Assembly: GCA_044344945.1 (NCBI GenBank)
Contig: JBIJBZ010000003.1
Coordinates: forward strand, 1 to 53,973
Source of the DNA: Bdellovibrionota bacterium
Lineage (GTDB): Bacteria > Bdellovibrionota_C > UBA2361 > OMII01
Direction: 5' to 3'
DNA length: 53,973 bases
Part shown: one piece after another, positions 3,989-8,148 of the stretch
Numbering within the stretch: position 1 is the stretch's first letter
Layout of the letters: each line of letters begins with the position of its first letter
Translations under genes and position numbers: made by a program
Notes under the pieces: generated by a model
Database searches by the model: none
Told to the model about the DNA's origin: nothing
The model's input: only the letters and a program-made list of their open reading frames with translations

Positions 3989-5818
3989 ATGAAAACTCTG
4001 AACGCCGCAATCGCGCTTCTGACTGTGATAGGAATCGTGCTTTCAGTTGTGTTACGATTCGTTTTCGGAGCCCCGGAGGGGATCGTTGATATCCCTGTTC
4101 TCGCAGTTTTGGCGCTTGGGGGTGGTGTACTCGTATTCCGTCTGATCGTAGGAATGCTCCGTGGCGAGTTCGGCTCGGATCTGCTCGCCGGGATCTCAAT
4201 TGTAACGTCGCTCTTGCTCGGTGAGTACGTTGCGGGCTCCCTGGTTGTTCTCATGTTATCGGGAGGCTCTGCCCTTGAGGAAGCTGCCATGCGCAGGGCC
4301 TCTTCTGTACTCGATGCACTTGCTAAGCGGATGCCCTCGATCGCGCACCGCAGACGAGGTCCCCATATGGAGGACCTCGCTGTGCAAGAGGTGCGGGCCG
4401 GAGACGAGCTAGTAGTGCTTCCGCATGAACTGTGTCCCGTGGACGGTATAGTAATAGAGGGGCATGGTTCTATGGACGAGTCGTATCTCACCGGCGAGCC
4501 GTATCGCATCTCAAAGACCCCGGGGTGTGAGGTTATCTCAGGTGCTATCAACGGTGAGGGTGCGGTTGTAATCCGCGCACTGCGAGAGGCGCAGGACTCG
4601 CGCTACGTGAAGATTATGATGGTTATGGACGCCTCTCGTCAGCGGAGACCGCGGATGCGACGTCTGGCCGATAAGCTCGGGGCTCTGTATACCCCGTGCG
4701 CTGTGGCGCTCGCGTTGATCGCGTGGATCACATCGGGGGATTCTCTGCGTTTTTTGGCGGTGCTCGTTGTTGCTACCCCGTGTCCGCTGATCATCGCGAT
4801 ACCCGTTGCAATTATCGGCGCGATCTCGTGGTGTGCAAAGCGCGGTATCATCATCAAGGATCCGATCGTTCTTGAGCGTGCGCAGAGCTGTGAAGTTCTT
4901 ATCACTGATAAAACGGGAACGCTTACGGTTGGAGAGCCTGTGCTTGAGTCGATTCAGACCCGAGGGGTATCAGAGGAGGAGATTCTACAGTTAGCGGCGA
5001 GTCTTGAGCAGTACTCAAAGCATCCGCTCGCATCGCCGGTTCTTGAATATGCTCGGGCGAGGAATATCGTCCTCGTGCAAGTGACAGATGCGCATGAGTT
5101 CCCAGGACAGGGGCTCGCTGGTTCGGTGCACGGTAAGGATGTGGTCATTACGGGTCGACGTTCAATGACGCCTGAGGCTATTGCCTGCTTTGAGCAATCT
5201 GCCTCGGGGCTTGAGTGCATCGTACTTATTAATGACGAGCCGGCGGCGCTCTTTCGATTTCGGGATCAAGCGCGACCGGAGAGTCATTCGTTTGTCTCGC
5301 ATCTGGGGCCGGAACACAATTTTCGCGATATTATTCTTTTGTCAGGTGACCGTAGTCAGGAGGTCGAGTACCTTGCGGGGCAGCTCGGAATTGCGCGCGT
5401 ATTCGCGGGTAAATCTCCGGAGGAGAAGGTGGCGATCGTTCAGGATGAAACACGGCGAGCACAGACCTTGTACTTAGGAGATGGTATTAACGACGCACCA
5501 GCATTAGCTGCAGCAACTGTTGGTGTGGCTTTCGGACCACGCAGCGATATCACTTCTGAGGCAGCTGGTGCTGTGATTCTGGAGCCGTCTCTGAGAAAAG
5601 TCGATCAGTTGCTTCACATTAGTGCCCACCTGCAGAGGGTGGCAACCCAGAGCGCCGTTGGTGGTATGGCTCTCAGCTTCCTGGGAATGTGCGTGGCGAC
5701 CTTCGGCTATCTCCCGCCAGTTCTGGGTGCGTTGGTTCAGGAAGGAATCGATCTCTTTGCCGTATTAAATGCGTTGCGTGCATCGTCGCTCCGAGGTCAC
5801 GAGAGTAATCATATCTAA
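3989..5818 (+). CDS. Heavy-metal-translocating P-type ATPase, P1B-5 subtype, without hemerythrin domain
   Basis: LTGE, TPCP, DKTGT, HP, GDGINDAP motifs; QSAVGGMALS (Q-x4-G-x3-S) and PVLGALVQEGID (P-x6-QE-x2-D); no N-terminal CxxC domain. Confidence 0.9.
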   Translation: MKTLNAAIALLTVIGIVLSVVLRFVFGAPEGIVDIPVLAVLALGGGVLVFRLIVGMLRGEFGSDLLAGISIVTSLLLGEYVAGSLVVLMLSGGSALEEAAMRRASSVLDALAKRMPSIAHRRRGPHMEDLAVQEVRAGDELVVLPHELCPVDGIVIEGHGSMDESYLTGEPYRISKTPGCEVISGAINGEGAVVIRALREAQDSRYVKIMMVMDASRQRRPRMRRLADKLGALYTPCAVALALIAWITSGDSLRFLAVLVVATPCPLIIAIPVAIIGAISWCAKRGIIIKDPIVLERAQSCEVLITDKTGTLTVGEPVLESIQTRGVSEEEILQLAASLEQYSKHPLASPVLEYARARNIVLVQVTDAHEFPGQGLAGSVHGKDVVITGRRSMTPEAIACFEQSASGLECIVLINDEPAALFRFRDQARPESHSFVSHLGPEHNFRDIILLSGDRSQEVEYLAGQLGIARVFAGKSPEEKVAIVQDETRRAQTLYLGDGINDAPALAAATVGVAFGPRSDITSEAAGAVILEPSLRKVDQLLHISAHLQRVATQSAVGGMALSFLGMCVATFGYLPPVLGALVQEGIDLFAVLNALRASSLRGHESNHI

Positions 5819-5856
5819 CGGGTGTCGTGCATGACGCCGTCGAAGATCCGTTTCTA

Positions 5857-5877
5857 CGTGAACGTGCTCGTGTCCGA
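5857..5877 (+). repeat. Hexamer array 1 (CGTGAA-like units ending in CGA)
   Basis: CGTGAA CGTGCT CGTGTC CGA. Confidence 0.6.
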
Positions 5878-5970
5878 AATTGAAACATCCTGAGTCTGTC
5901 TCTAAATTAGAGTGAGATAAGTAAATATGGCTCTTCGTGAAATCGAGCGGGTAAAATTGGTGTTAGCGGA

Positions 5971-6009
5971 CGTGAAGATGTTCGTGCACGTAAACCTGAA
6001 CGTACCCGA
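5971..6009 (+). repeat. Hexamer array 2, left arm of the inverted repeat around the four-helix-bundle gene
   Basis: CGTGAA GATGTT CGTGCA CGTAAA CCTGAA CGTACC CGA (39 bp). Confidence 0.8.
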
Positions 6010-6019
6010 AAAAGTGTGT

Positions 6020-6351
6020 TCACACGCCCTGAAGGCAGAGTTTAGAAAGCATGGCCCCAATCCGTGTAAGCAAAAGCTTTCCGGTGCGATATTCGTCCAA
6101 GGAGAGGTGGCCAAGAGCCTTAACAAATCAAAGAGGGCACCACACTCCGTGACGGACCCTCGTGCTATTGAGAAATAGCGCCGTTTATCGGCTTGTTTGA
6201 GCTTGCCGGCACCTTCGGCGATGTTGAGCACAATCGAAAATGATGCGCGCTTACACTGATCTTGGAGTTCTCCGTTTCCCCTGGGTAGCCGGTCTCGAAC
6301 CTACACAGCCAGAGGAATACGGTGAACATCCAATTTTTCGTAATCCAGCAT
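6020..6351 (-). pseudogene. Four-helix-bundle protein (23S rRNA IVS-protein/Avd-like fold), pseudogene
   Basis: ATG at 6351 after GAGGAG reads MLDYEKLDVH...; in-frame TAG at 6303-6301; then DQCKRASFSIVLNIAEGAGK...YFSIARGSVTEC; the family-like C-terminus GKLLLTRIGAMLSKL lies in a shifted frame ending at TGA 6022-6020. Confidence 0.85.
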
Positions 6352-6390
6352 ACTCCTCGATATCGATCGGCGGGGCAGAAAGTTGCTAGA

Positions 6391-6429
6391 TCGGGTACGT
6401 TCACGCTCACGTTTACAAGCACGTTCACG
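6391..6429 (-). repeat. Hexamer array 3, right arm of the inverted repeat
   Basis: Reverse complement reads CGTGAA CGTGCT TGTAAA CGTGAG CGTGAA CGTACC CGA (39 bp), in the same register as 5971-6009; the terminal 13 bp TGAACGTACCCGA are identical. Confidence 0.8.
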
Positions 6430-6541
6430 CGGAAATACGTGATGTATCACTAAAAACAATGGGTTGTGCCCCATCAGTAGTCATTGGCACCAATTTGATT
6501 TCCCGATGACTCGTAAATATGAAAGGCCTCCCGAACTATAC

Positions 6542-6580
6542 TCGGGTAGGTTTACGTTCACGTTTGCGAGCTCGTTAACG
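6542..6580 (-). repeat. Hexamer array 4
   Basis: Reverse complement reads CGTTAA CGAGCT CGCAAA CGTGAA CGTAAA CCTACC CGA (39 bp). Confidence 0.75.
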
Positions 6581-6741
6581 GGGCAGTCCAGTCAGGTGGG
6601 ATAGGCTAGCCCTGGCATAACCCTTGATATCCGATATAGGTGAGGGGCTTTGTTTCCTCGCGCCTGTCTTGAGTCGCCGCAGAGAGCGCACCCTTGAGCA
6701 GTCTTCTTAATACTTTATTCGTACAGTTAATCCAGGCTATT

Positions 6742-8148
6742 ATGAGACGAGCTGCCGTATTTCTCACCAGTATTTTCTGCATATGCTCTACCGCTCACGC
6801 AGCTGTTCCTAGTGACTTTGATGGCGATGGCGTTTCAGACCTGACACGGGTCGAGGAGCAGAGTGACGGATCTTTGACGTGGAAGGCGGTCTCCTCCAAC
6901 TCGGGAAATACCATAGAGCTTGGTTCCCTCGGAAAAGCAAGGGACTTGCCGGCGATGGCACAGTGGCTGAGCGCGGGCACTCAGATCGGTGTCGCCTCAC
7001 TCGATGAGACAGCGGGGACGATTACCTGGTCAATCCTCGATGGGGCATCTACTAGAGTAGACCGAATATTCGGGAAGAAGGGAGATCTCGTTGTTTCTGG
7101 TGCTGATTTCAATGGCAATGGGATCGCTGATGCCGCAGTTGTCCGGCTTGTTAGCGGAGTCGCTCAATGGCAGATCGCGTACGATCTCTTTTCAGTGGCG
7201 TCTCCTGAAACAGCTACGTTCGAATTTGGGAAGGCAGGAGACCGCGCATTTTACGCACGTGTTGAGGGTGGAGCCCTCGATTGGGTTGGAATGATGCGCA
7301 AGGGCCGGCGGAGTCGATCGACAGCGCTGATGCGAAATCCGGGTACGGGTGAAGTGCGACAATTCAAGCGCATGCCAAAGCTTGCAAGCACTGGGGCTCG
7401 CCCACGCGCGTTCCCAATCCGGCAATCAGTCGGCGGTGATTTGCTCGGTTTTCAATATGCCAAGGGTGGGGGAACTGTGATCGTGGCGTACTCCTTTGGC
7501 GGGGCAAAGATCTCCTCTGATACGTCGGCTGGAAGCGGGATCTCCGTGGTTGGCGATTTTAACGCCGGTGATGGCTTTGAGGTTGCGTATCAAAGTGTGC
7601 CGGAGAGTGTAGTCATCAATCCTCTCCAAGGCGAGGTTCGAGAGATATCGAATGCGGGCGGTATCCCGGTTGATGAGATCAACATTACAACCCTCGGTGC
7701 TCCTGCGGCTATGCCTACACCAACAGGAGGGTCGTCAGGGGGAGGAGATTCAACAGGAGGCTCGCTGGCTCAATGCTCCCAGATGACAAGCTTGCCGGGT
7801 GGCTACGTGTATAAGACTGTTGGTTCGCACCACTTCACTGATGTGCGTAGGAACACAATCGGTGTTGTGGTTAAGCCCGGAGGTCGAGGTCCGTTTCCCA
7901 GCTGTGTAAACGTAATCGATACGCAAGGGAACCTAGTCGCTAAACTGGCTTTGTATTCCAAAGGCGCTGGTTGGGCAGCTCGGTACTATGCAGGAGTAGG
8001 ATGCGCTACTGGCACTCCATTGAACGGTGCTGCTGTTGCCTCGAAGGCGCGCGCGAGGACCGGTAGCTCCAAGGTATACTTAAACTTTGGTGGAAACTGC
8101 TACGGTCCTATCGAAGGGAACAAGTGCGTCGGTAGCGCGCATTGCTAG
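6742..8148 (+). CDS. Secreted FG-GAP/VCBS-like repeat protein with Gly/Ser linker and Cys-rich C-terminal domain
   Basis: Signal peptide MRRAAVFL...TAHA; DFDGDG, DFNGNG and GDFNAGDG Ca-binding-type motifs; PTPTGGSSGGG linker; six Cys in the final domain. Confidence 0.8.
   Translation: MRRAAVFLTSIFCICSTAHAAVPSDFDGDGVSDLTRVEEQSDGSLTWKAVSSNSGNTIELGSLGKARDLPAMAQWLSAGTQIGVASLDETAGTITWSILDGASTRVDRIFGKKGDLVVSGADFNGNGIADAAVVRLVSGVAQWQIAYDLFSVASPETATFEFGKAGDRAFYARVEGGALDWVGMMRKGRRSRSTALMRNPGTGEVRQFKRMPKLASTGARPRAFPIRQSVGGDLLGFQYAKGGGTVIVAYSFGGAKISSDTSAGSGISVVGDFNAGDGFEVAYQSVPESVVINPLQGEVREISNAGGIPVDEINITTLGAPAAMPTPTGGSSGGGDSTGGSLAQCSQMTSLPGGYVYKTVGSHHFTDVRRNTIGVVVKPGGRGPFPSCVNVIDTQGNLVAKLALYSKGAGWAARYYAGVGCATGTPLNGAAVASKARARTGSSKVYLNFGGNCYGPIEGNKCVGSAHC

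What the first reader, a model, noticed from the sequence alone, without database searches (positions are those of the whole stretch)
5857..6580. Four-helix-bundle gene caged in nested, inverted 6-bp-period arrays, like a transposase-less cassette
Seen: four arrays of CGTGAA-like hexamers, each ending in (C/T)CCGA. Two point right (5857-5877, 5971-6009) and two point left (6391-6429, 6542-6580). The inner pair are both 39 bp, in the same register, share 13 identical terminal bases and sit tightly around the gene (6020-6351). Established: this protein family shares its fold with 23S rRNA IVS proteins and with Avd, the nucleic-acid-binding DGR accessory protein; its stand-alone function is unknown. 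Inference: the gene and arrays form one unit, either a non-autonomous mobile or self-excising element, or an RNA/ssDNA long-stem target bound by the protein. The gene is decayed (TAG, frameshift) while the repeats persist.
Basis: partly seen in the sequence, partly recalled or inferred. Interest (0 to 1): 0.75.

Follow-up and report, generated by a model that had tools for sequence, protein, structure and literature searches.

The report
Dead transposon copy carrying IVS-type gene
The caged gene is a broken copy of a small, roughly 50-copy jumping element whose cargo is a "23S rRNA intervening-sequence" four-helix-bundle gene flanked by mirror-image six-base repeats. The same gene-plus-repeats package recurs in distant bacterial phyla and has no known function.

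Summary
Such arrays are far above chance in this genome: 174 with at least 4 units, against 0-2 in simulations.

The unit is not the nested cage. The real element is window 5929-6512:
- It has about 25-bp ISL3-type inverted ends (GGCTCTTCG...).
- It has a perfect 8-bp target duplication, GTAAATAT.
- The Bdellovibrionota MAG holds 107 such ends.
- The inner arrays are subterminal arms hugging the gene.
- The outer arrays are a separate, degenerate hairpin remnant that the element landed in. That nesting is a one-off: 2 of 106 element ends have such a flank.

Relatives keep a short ATPase-to-next-gene spacer without arrays.

Array-less mini copies with their own duplications suggest the arms are not needed for this transposition.

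In 36 distant loci (Sorangium, Planctomycetia, Chloroflexota and others), 23 have significant inverted arms, and 62 of 72 flanks have a 6- or 12-nt period. Gene plus hexamer arms is therefore a cross-phylum cassette.

Earlier agents of this scan found this cassette on other DNA. I found it in no paper.

What the arms do is unresolved. My best guess is an RNA hairpin recognised by the pentameric protein, by analogy with Avd.

The parts
3989..5818 (+). P-type (E1-E2) ATPase gene, the upstream neighbour. Not part of the element.
   Evidence: Pfam PF00122 4.4e-39 and PF00702 2.4e-16. Orthologues in 13 of 13 fetched congener loci.
5857..5877 (+). Outer left array (3 hexamers plus CCGA). Probably the left arm of an older, gene-less hexamer hairpin remnant.
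   Evidence: Sequence. Weak alone: flank score 3.5, reached or exceeded by 51 of 1500 random windows. Lies in about 165 nt that congeners lack.
5921..5928 (.). Left copy of the 8-bp target-site duplication GTAAATAT.
   Evidence: Identical 8-mer at 6513-6520.
5929..5953 (+). Left terminal inverted repeat (the end on the 3' side of the gene), GGCTCTTCG...GGGTA, ISL3 type.
   Evidence: Similarity to about 50 other copies starts here. It resembles the repeats beside ISL3 transposase genes in congeners.
5971..6009 (+). Arm B: the hexamer array just 3' of the gene, ending in CGTACCCGA towards the gene.
   Evidence: pair I1. Pairs with arm A in the MFE and centroid folds.
6020..6351 (-). PF05635 / TIGR02436 four-helix-bundle gene, now a pseudogene (15-nt deletion, in-frame TAG, 1-nt deletion).
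   Evidence: 49.6 bits, profile positions 30-80. Alignment to intact copies. The intact paralogue P0001 scores PF05635 3.6e-21 and TIGR02436 3.8e-17.
6352..6390 (-). 39-nt leader between arm A and the ATG, containing GAGGAG (ribosome-binding-site-like). Conserved among copies.
6391..6429 (-). Arm A: the hexamer array 5' of the gene, ending in CGTACCCGA towards the gene.
6457..6476 (-). Terminator-like hairpin plus T run inside the 5'-side end of the element. Conserved in copies, including the minis.
   Evidence: conservation seen.
6486..6512 (-). Right terminal inverted repeat (the end on the 5' side of the gene).
   Evidence: Similarity to other copies stops at 6509-6512. 13 nt at 5932-5944 pair with 6497-6509 (pair I13).
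6513..6520 (.). Right copy of the target-site duplication GTAAATAT.
6542..6580 (-). Outer right array: the right arm of the older hairpin remnant.
   Evidence: 93% identical to the array at G000:C31:33516-33559. Flank score 4.5.
6613..6627 (+). Sigma-54-type motif (TGGCA-N6-TTGA) of the downstream gene. Marks the native right edge of the spacer.
   Evidence: The same motif is seen in 7 of the 9 congener spacers printed. That it is a sigma-54 site is my reading of the consensus, from recall.

Best explanation
SHOWN
- Window 5929-6512 is a dead copy of a 584-bp non-autonomous DNA transposon.
- It has about 25-bp ISL3-type terminal inverted repeats and an 8-bp target duplication.
- It has multiplied to roughly 50 copies in this freshwater Bdellovibrionota genome and occurs in most congeners searched.
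- It carries no transposase.
- Its cargo is a cassette: a 115-aa PF05635 four-helix-bundle gene with a short leader, bracketed by two inverted arrays of (CGTGNN) hexamers.
- This copy landed in the middle of an older, degenerate hexamer hairpin remnant. That remnant had itself been added to a spacer that is mostly about 60-100 nt in congeners, between the ATPase gene and the next gene. This is why the locus looks like a nested cage.

INFERRED
- The element is moved in trans by an ISL3-family transposase that recognises the outer repeats, not the arrays.
- The arrays belong to the cargo. In the transcript they form a long imperfect hairpin enclosing the reading frame, as in ORF-bearing 23S rRNA intervening sequences.
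- The conserved CGTG core and the strict 6-nt period mark this hairpin for recognition by the pentameric protein itself. The model is Avd, whose five protomers grip an RNA stem-loop.
- What the resulting particle does is unknown.

The confidence figure covers the anatomy and the transposon reading. For the arm mechanism alone I give about 0.35.
For: Boundaries and copy number
- BLAST of window 5700-6800 against the genome gives 148 matches outside the window. These start at 5912-5935 and stop at 6505-6523.
- 107 ends match the inverted-repeat consensus with up to 4 mismatches: 60 on the 3' side of the gene and 47 on the 5' side.
- 8 of the 14 PF05635 matches lie within 350 nt of a contig end, as expected if near-identical repeats break the assembly.

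Transposition
- Of 18 copies with both ends on one contig, 9 have a perfect 8-bp duplication and 2 have one mismatch. The window's is GTAAATAT.
- Nearest-neighbour identity of ends is at least 98% for 10 of 44 and 12 of 54.

ISL3 link
- The repeat starts GGCTCTTCG and the duplication is 8 bp. The same is described for Microcystis ISL3 elements and their MITE (PMC11448079, passages read).
- All three ISL3 transposase matches in the genus (3 of 35 genomes) are bounded by a repeat of this family.

Insertion
- 12 of 13 congener loci keep the ATPase gene next to the same downstream gene. None of the 13 has an array of 4 or more units or an inverted-repeat end.

Arms not needed for this transposition
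- Mini copies of 96-118 bp lack both arms and gene.
- Three of them share one junction.
- Three of five have perfect 8-bp duplications of their own and one more has a single mismatch.

Cargo is functional in other copies
- Median dN/dS is 0.14 over 20 pairs among the 8 intact ORFs, out of 14 ORFs examined.

Arms belong with the gene
- In 36 distant loci, 23 have significant bracketing inverted repeats (z > 5).
- 62 of 72 flanks have their best period at 6 or 12 nt.
- 25 of 72 reach at least 80% self-identity at that lag, against 2 of 72 and 0 of 72 in control windows farther away.
- All 3 PF05635 genes of Sorangium cellulosum So ce56 are flanked this way.

Hairpin
- The arms pair in the MFE and centroid folds, z = -4.92.

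Protein analogy
- P0001 matches the solved protein 2gsc (5 chains) at 4e-8.
- Avd is a pentameric barrel described as similar to S23 proteins. All five of its protomers contact an 11-bp RNA stem-loop through flipped-out bases (bioRxiv 10.1101/2023.10.23.563531, passages read).
Against: Transposase
- No ISL3 transposase (PF01610) was found in this 93%-complete assembly. The mobilising enzyme is inferred from congeners.
- 7 of the 18 two-ended copies have no duplication.

RNA-hairpin reading
- Mismatches in the arms show no bias towards G-U on the gene's sense strand: 83 sense against 104 antisense (p = 0.14). Transversion-type mismatches dominate (275).
- Arms of one copy pair no better than arms taken from different copies: 0.768 against 0.774, and 1421 of 2000 permutations reach the observed value.
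- Arm A gains and loses whole units without matching changes in arm B.
- I saw only one compensated change, in L043.

Transcription
- A terminator-like hairpin lies upstream of arm A.
- No promoter was recognised on the gene's strand, so it is not shown that arm A is transcribed.

Protein recognition
- The Avd model scores only 16.2 bits against a cut-off of 80.
- Array lengths range from about 20 to 173 nt across taxa, which does not fit one pentamer per arm.
- Some congener genes have no clear hexamer arms: three G042 copies, G014 and G047.
Confidence: 0.75

Rival explanations
1. The arms are only an RNA processing or insulating stem, as in 23S rRNA intervening sequences. RNase III cuts the long hairpin and releases a self-contained transcript. 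The 6-nt period is a by-product of slippage, and the protein does not recognise the arms.
For: - ORF-bearing intervening sequences have exactly this layout. The Coxiella element has a 28-bp terminal stem cut by RNase III (PMC4990558, passages read).
- The arms pair in the predicted fold, z = -4.92.
- Across phyla the arms hug the reading frame: 15-97 nt upstream and 2-31 nt downstream in most of the armed loci.
- Whole-unit gains and losses fit slippage.
Against: - There is no sense-strand G-U bias (83 against 104).
- Copy-specific pairing shows no signal.
- Pairing alone does not explain why 62 of 72 flanks in several phyla settle on period 6 or 12 with a fixed CG-containing core.
- It also does not explain why gene-less hairpins are numerous.
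Confidence: 0.25
2. Gene plus arms is itself an independent mobile element that acts at the DNA level. The arrays are its cis-acting ends and the four-helix-bundle protein is its mobility factor (the old Ralph and McClelland idea for intervening sequences). Gene-less hexamer hairpins are its non-autonomous derivatives. The ISL3-type ends merely captured one copy.
For: - The cassette sits in unrelated contexts and phyla.
- Gene-less inverted arrays far outnumber genes. So ce56 has 378 pattern windows against 32 control windows, and 3 genes. This genome has 30 convergent array pairs with loops of 7-594 nt.
- Arrays occur inside MITEs with at least two unrelated kinds of terminal repeat.
- Arrays are intergenic: 18 of 174 lie in frames of 200 codons or more, against 78% of the genome.
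- The mobility hypothesis is quoted in PMC4990558 (passages read).
Against: - Genome-level co-occurrence in the genus is loose. G017 has 201 array windows and no PF05635 match; G042 has 6 matches and no CGT array.
- I saw no duplication or fixed outer end at bare hairpins.
- The protein has no known catalytic motif.
- No reverse transcriptase (PF00078) was found in this assembly.
- No arrays lie near the 3 Y1-transposase matches.
Confidence: 0.2
3. The hexamer arrays are subterminal transposase-binding repeats of the ISL3-type element, comparable to the subterminal repeats of some eukaryotic transposons, and are needed for its transposition.
For: Three element classes with ISL3-type ends in this genome all carry inverted arrays just inside the ends.
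Against: - Array-less minis have spread, each with its own duplication.
- The sequence just inside the repeats of the ISL3 transposase remnants shows no arrays.
- The same arrays occur in a MITE class with a different terminal repeat, CCCTAGGGAAGCGAGGCAAAAC.
- Arrays flank PF05635 genes in other phyla. I did not check those loci for ISL3-type ends.
Confidence: 0.05
4. One reading: all four arrays form one nested, self-excising cage around the gene.
For: Inverted orientation of both pairs, with a shared CCGA end.
Against: - Similarity to the other copies ends at 5929 and 6512, inside the outer pair.
- Only 2 of 106 element ends have an array-like flank, against 16 of 1500 random windows. With arrays of 4 or more units the count is 0 of 106.
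- The outer arrays do not pair with each other in the predicted fold.
Confidence: 0.03

Closest known systems
ISL3-derived MITEs and mobile insertion cassettes, for example the 187-nt Microcystis aeruginosa MITE (PMC11448079, passages read)
   Same: Terminal repeats starting GGCTCTTCG, 8-bp direct duplications, no transposase inside, tens of copies, mostly intergenic, and a stem-loop-forming interior.
   Different: - This element carries a protein-coding passenger (PF05635) framed by hexamer arrays.
- No matching transposase was found in the same assembly, only in congeners.
- The term 'mobile insertion cassette' for transposase-less elements with passenger genes is from recall, not from a paper read here.
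ORF-bearing 23S rRNA intervening sequences (Coxiella burnetii, Leptospira; PMC4990558, passages read)
   Same: - A PF05635 / S23p reading frame enclosed by terminal inverted repeats that form a long stem.
- Short tandem repeats next to the frame. Coxiella has GACAGAT heptamers of variable copy number, and a G047 congener copy here has ACGTCCT heptamers.
- Regarded as selfish and horizontally spread.
   Different: - This copy is not in an rRNA gene: it lies between protein genes and inside a DNA transposon.
- The arms are periodic hexamer arrays rather than a unique 28-bp stem.
- RNase III processing is untested here.
Avd, the accessory protein of diversity-generating retroelements (bioRxiv 10.1101/2023.10.23.563531, passages read)
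   Same: Small four-helix-bundle protein, with a weak NCBIfam match. Avd forms a pentameric basic barrel that grips an RNA stem-loop with all five protomers.
   Different: The Avd model scores 16.2 bits against a cut-off of 80. There is no reverse transcriptase, template repeat or variable repeat nearby, nor any PF00078 match in the assembly.
REP / REPIN elements mobilised by RAYT transposases
   Same: Abundant intergenic palindromic repeats occurring as inverted pairs.
   Different: The 3 Y1-transposase matches in the genome have no arrays within the fetched loci, which extend about 1.4-1.5 kb to each side. The repeats here are periodic hexamer arrays, and the associated gene is a four-helix bundle.

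Membership tests
ISL3-family non-autonomous element (MITE or cassette) | Terminal inverted repeats of ISL3 type (starting GGCTCTTCG). | tested here: met
   The left end is GGCTCTTCG...; consensus over 107 ends. The motif is as described in PMC11448079.
ISL3-family non-autonomous element (MITE or cassette) | 8-bp target-site duplication. | tested here: met
   GTAAATAT on both sides in the window. 9 perfect and 2 one-mismatch among 18 two-ended copies; 7 of 18 have none.
ISL3-family non-autonomous element (MITE or cassette) | No transposase gene inside. | tested here: met
   The element is 584 bp and its only family match is PF05635.
ISL3-family non-autonomous element (MITE or cassette) | A cognate ISL3 transposase with matching ends in the same genome. 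| tested here: not met
   No PF01610 match in G000, which is 93% complete. Matching ends beside ISL3 transposase genes were found in congeners G015, G009 and G019.
PF05635 / TIGR02436 four-helix-bundle protein | Profile match above the curated cut-off. | tested here: met
   The window copy scores 49.6 bits against 33.8, covering only profile positions 30-80. The intact paralogue P0001 scores 75.8 bits on PF05635 and 62.5 bits on TIGR02436.
23S rRNA intervening sequence | Located in a helix of the 23S rRNA gene. | tested here: not met
   It lies between an ATPase gene and a protein gene. There is no rRNA match in 5700-6800.
23S rRNA intervening sequence | Flanking inverted repeats that form a stem around the reading frame. 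| tested here: met
   39-nt arms, 77% complementary, paired in the MFE and centroid folds.
23S rRNA intervening sequence | Excision from the transcript by RNase III. | not testable with these tools
   No RNA run was listed for this stretch.
Diversity-generating retroelement (Avd) | Avd equivalog match, and an adjacent reverse transcriptase with template and variable repeats. | tested here: not met
   NF033474 scores 16.2 bits against a cut-off of 80. No PF00078 match in the genome.
REPIN / RAYT system | Repeats flank a Y1 (RAYT) transposase gene. | tested here: not met
   None of the 3 PF01797 loci holds an array of 4 or more units.

The most novel reading that the evidence does not exclude
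PF05635 proteins are sequence- and register-specific binders of the hexamer-repeat hairpins that flank their own genes. Successive protomers of the ring (or stacked rings) would read one CG-anchored unit every 6 nt, as Avd protomers read flipped-out bases of an RNA stem-loop. Gene plus arms would then be a self-recognising ribonucleoprotein cassette. It would be the free-living form of the ORF-bearing rRNA intervening sequences. It can ride on other mobile DNA (here an ISL3-type transposon) and leaves gene-less hairpins behind.
Probability: 0.3. Interest if true: 0.8.

Novelty: new variant of a known kind. Interest (0 to 1): 0.6.

Why it matters
The function of the S23p / PF05635 proteins and the origin of rRNA intervening sequences have been open since the early 1990s. 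PMC4990558 (passages read) still lists mobility and selfishness as hypotheses.

This locus shows the same gene-plus-inverted-arms package outside rRNA, captured by an ordinary DNA transposon and amplified to about 50 copies. Three points follow:
- Intact copies are under purifying selection.
- Array-less derivatives still spread. This separates how the element moves here (ISL3-type ends) from what the arms are for.
- The 6-nt period recurs in several phyla.

That gives concrete, cheap experiments: protein against arm RNA or DNA, and expression with and without RNase III.

In practice, these elements break short-read assemblies and add hairpins, and possibly terminators, between genes of freshwater Bdellovibrionota.

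Tried and rejected
- RNA evidence: no RNA holder was listed for window 5300-7300.
- Rfam: nothing at or near a gathering score in 5700-6800 or in four other element loci.
- Copy-specific compensation in the arms: no signal. The comparison was ungapped, so whole-unit indels blur it. A stricter arm census recovered only 11 distinct arm pairs.
- Sense-strand G-U bias: none.
- Retro-mobility: no PF00078 match in the assembly.
- REPIN / RAYT reading of the hairpins: rejected.
- Preference of the element for hexamer hairpins as targets: rejected.
- Genome-level dependence of arrays on the gene within the genus: only loose. Of 10 genomes with 50 or more array windows, 8 have a PF05635 match. Of the other 25, 12 do. 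Related genomes are not independent samples.
- Exact empty site: congeners are only 64-71% identical in the ATPase DNA, so only synteny and spacer length could be compared, not a base-exact empty site.
- Literature: six full-text searches (and a failed first try) found no description of hexamer arms around PF05635 genes outside rRNA.
- Complex prediction and structure prediction were not used. They cannot include nucleic acid, and a solved homologue exists (2gsc).
Full report
OBSERVATION

- The inner pair, 5971-6009 (+) and 6391-6429 (-), are both 39 nt and 77% complementary. Both end in the same 13 bases towards the gene.
- The gene (6351 to 6020, minus strand) matches PF05635 over part of the profile.
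- Against intact copies it has a 15-nt deletion, an in-frame TAG and a 1-nt deletion.
- Arrays of this kind are not chance. The genome holds 174 arrays with at least 4 CGT at period 6, against 0-2 in three Markov-3 simulations. It holds 115 oriented ends of the form ...CGTNNCCGN, against 1.

WHAT THE UNIT REALLY IS

BLAST of 5700-6800 against the window's own genome (a 281-contig, 3.35-Mb MAG) gave 148 matches outside the window. These begin at 5912-5935 and stop at 6505-6523. The repeated unit is therefore 5929-6512.
- Its ends are inverted repeats of about 25 bp: GGSTCTTCGTGGAATCGAGTGGGTA and the reverse complement of ...ACCCACTYGATTCCSCGATGASCC.
- In the window it is flanked by GTAAATAT on both sides.
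- 107 such ends exist in the genome. Of the 18 copies with both ends on one contig, 9 have perfect 8-bp duplications, 2 have one mismatch and 7 have none.
- Sizes run from 72-118 bp (minis) through 300-400 bp (internal deletions) to 584-587 bp (full length). Two copies of 720-767 bp carry extra insertions.
- 8 of the 14 PF05635 matches sit within 350 nt of a contig end.
- A fifth to a quarter of ends have a twin at 98% identity or more. Part of the family is therefore young.

WHICH TRANSPOSASE

- A repeat beginning GGCTCTTCG plus 8-nt direct repeats is what a Microcystis study reports for ISL3 elements and their MITE (PMC11448079, passages read).
- This assembly has no PF01610 match.
- In the genus, 3 of 35 genomes have one, and all three are bounded by a repeat of this family: GGCTCATCGGGTTTTCGAGTGGGTA in G015, a near copy in G009, and GGGTCTTCGACGGAATCAGTGGGTG in G019.
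- The G019 repeat is nearly identical to the ends of a second MITE class in G000.
- The element's DNA occurs in 19 of 24 congeners and in 0 of 16 genomes from other families of the order.
- Record titles of close relatives name freshwater Bdellovibrionota MAGs.

THE LOCUS

- Twelve of 13 congener loci keep the ATPase gene followed by the same downstream gene.
- The spacer is mostly about 60-100 nt. Three are about 200-600 nt.
- None of the 13 has an array of 4 or more units or an element end.
- A TGGCA..TTGA motif upstream of the downstream gene is shared. In the window it lies at 6613-6627.
- The window therefore holds about 755 nt of added DNA. The 584-bp element and its duplicated target 8-mer account for 592 nt. 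About 165 nt remain, and these carry the two outer arrays.
- The right outer array is 93% identical to an array on contig C31. The left one is weak on its own.
- Nesting is not a property of the element. 0 of 106 outward flanks hold an array of 4 or more units. 2 of 106 reach the window's score, against 16 of 1500 random windows.
- In the fold of 5845-6592 the outer arrays do not pair with each other.

THE ARRAYS ARE CARGO, NOT TRANSPOSON ENDS

- Mini copies of 96-118 bp lack arms and gene. Three share one junction. Three of five have perfect 8-bp duplications of their own and one more has a single mismatch. They could be deletion derivatives or the empty progenitor. Either way, transposition does not need the arms.
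- The ISL3 transposase remnants show no arrays just inside their repeats.
- The same arrays occur elsewhere in the genome: in about 330-bp elements with a conserved cargo of about 131-nt loop (143 nt by the array census), in short hairpins bounded by an unrelated repeat (CCCTAGGGAAGCGAGGCAAAAC), and as bare hairpins with loops of 7-240 nt.
- Arrays are intergenic. 18 of 174 lie in open frames of 200 codons or more, which cover 78% of the genome.

THE CROSS-PHYLUM PATTERN

I took 36 loci with full flanks whose proteins are 44-59% identical to the intact paralogue P0001. They come from Sorangium, other Myxococcota, Bradymonadales, Planctomycetia, Chloroflexota, Thermoanaerobaculia and others.
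- 23 have a significant inverted repeat bracketing the gene (z > 5 against shuffles).
- The arms are again hexamer arrays, with lineage-specific units: CGTGCG, CGTGTT, CCCGTG, GGGCTC, ACGTAG and others.
- 62 of 72 flanks have their best self-similarity at lag 6 or 12.
- 25 of 72 exceed 80% at that lag in a 36-nt window, against 2 of 72 and 0 of 72 in control windows 700-1300 nt away.
- In Sorangium cellulosum So ce56 all 3 PF05635 genes are flanked this way. The genome also has 378 six-unit CGT windows against 32 in the reversed-pattern control, mostly as inverted pairs without a gene.
- There are exceptions within the genus. Three G042 copies have 90-nt unique inverted repeats. One G047 copy has ACGTCCT heptamers. 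G019 and L050 have arrays only downstream.
- Earlier agents of this scan reported the same cassette on other DNA. I reached it independently before reading those notes, and took from them only the pointer to PMC11448079.

IS THE GENE ALIVE

- The window's copy is dead.
- Among 14 close ORFs, 8 are intact. Their median dN/dS over 20 pairs is 0.14, so the protein is under purifying selection.
- P0001 matches PF05635 (3.6e-21), TIGR02436 (3.8e-17) and the solved Xanthomonas protein 2gsc (4e-8, five chains). It matches Avd only weakly.

WHAT THE ARMS DO

For an RNA stem:
- The intervening-sequence precedent. In Coxiella a 28-bp stem is cut by RNase III, and variable heptamer repeats lie next to the frame (PMC4990558, passages read).
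- The predicted fold.
- The arms' tight embrace of the frame.

Against a simple stem:
- No sense-strand G-U bias (83 against 104).
- Many transversion-type mismatches (275), coming from differences in unit order.
- No copy-specific pairing.
- Unit gains and losses in one arm only.

What stays fixed is a CG-containing core every 6 nt, in several phyla. That points to recognition of units rather than of pairing alone.

The only structural precedent I could read is Avd. It is a pentameric barrel, described as similar to S23 proteins, whose five protomers each contact an RNA stem-loop through flipped-out bases. I therefore favour a hairpin read by the protein at about 0.35. I put a plain processing stem at about 0.25, a DNA-level mobile cassette with the protein as mobility factor at about 0.2, and the remainder on other or unknown roles.

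Against the mobility-factor idea:
- Loose genome-level co-occurrence. G017 has 201 array windows and no gene; G042 has 6 genes and no CGT arrays.
- No reverse transcriptase in the assembly.
- No RAYT association.

KNOWN OR NEW

- ISL3-type MITEs are known, and ORF-bearing intervening sequences are known.
- I found no paper describing hexamer-armed PF05635 cassettes outside rRNA (searches; supplements closed).
- Two papers list 23S_rRNA_IVP genes near CRISPR loci without explanation.
- I file this locus as a new variant of a known kind: a dead copy of an ISL3-type non-autonomous element whose passenger is an intervening-sequence-type cassette.

Noticed in passing
window 6613-6627 (+): A TGGCA-N6-TTGA motif about 115 nt upstream of the likely ATG (6742) of the 484-aa downstream gene. 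The same motif appears in 7 of the 9 congener spacers printed. It looks like a sigma-54 (-24/-12) promoter; the consensus is from recall.
   Followed up: partly
The FG-GAP label is unconfirmed.
   Followed up: partly
window 6457-6476 (-): A terminator-like hairpin plus T run just inside the element's 5'-side end, conserved in full copies and in the minis. The element may act as a portable terminator.
   Followed up: no
G000:C186:19656-19845 (L002): The only complete copy in G000 with an intact ORF carries a second 190-bp MITE (inverted ends CTAGCAGGGTGGTGAAAAAAG) between arm A and the start codon. Similar ends abut two other copies, C168 and C81.
   Followed up: no
G000 C41:6760-7100, C41:18740-19070, C78:9430-9770, C240:4050-4390, C165:3690-4020, C152:20420-20760, C193:19000-19340, C235:500-830: A second MITE class of about 330 bp, seen at the 8 loci printed. 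It has ISL3-type ends (GGGTCTTCGACG..AGTGGGTG), inverted hexamer arms and a conserved cargo of about 131-nt loop (143 nt by the array census) with an internal hairpin. There is no Rfam match and no ORF longer than 76 aa.
   Followed up: partly
G000 C31:23170-23370, C176:4000-4200, C249:6690-6890: Short hexamer-arm hairpins (18-nt loop between the arms) bounded by an unrelated inverted repeat, CCCTAGGGAAGCGAGGCAAAAC. This is a third carrier of the same arms.
   Followed up: no
flanks of copies on G000 C243, C89, C32, C148, C190, C68: Another repeat (AGACCGGAAGGTATCTCGATACGATTCCGCCCTGAAAATA) lies directly beside six insertion sites of the element. It may be a preferred target or a further mobile repeat.
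   Followed up: no
L133 (G047:C77:10100-11700): A congener PF05635 gene followed by ACGTCCT heptamer arrays instead of hexamers. This recalls the GACAGAT heptamers beside the Coxiella S23p frame.
   Followed up: no
L056 1200-2150 (Bradymonadales MAG): The roughly 120-nt block upstream of the gene, including its arm, is repeated directly after the downstream arm. It could be tandem cassettes or a long duplication.
   Followed up: no
literature (PMC3936711, PMC10910872): Two CRISPR surveys list 23S_rRNA_IVP genes as CRISPR- or cas-linked (passages). Periodic arms next to these genes might contribute to such calls, or the link may be real.
   Followed up: no
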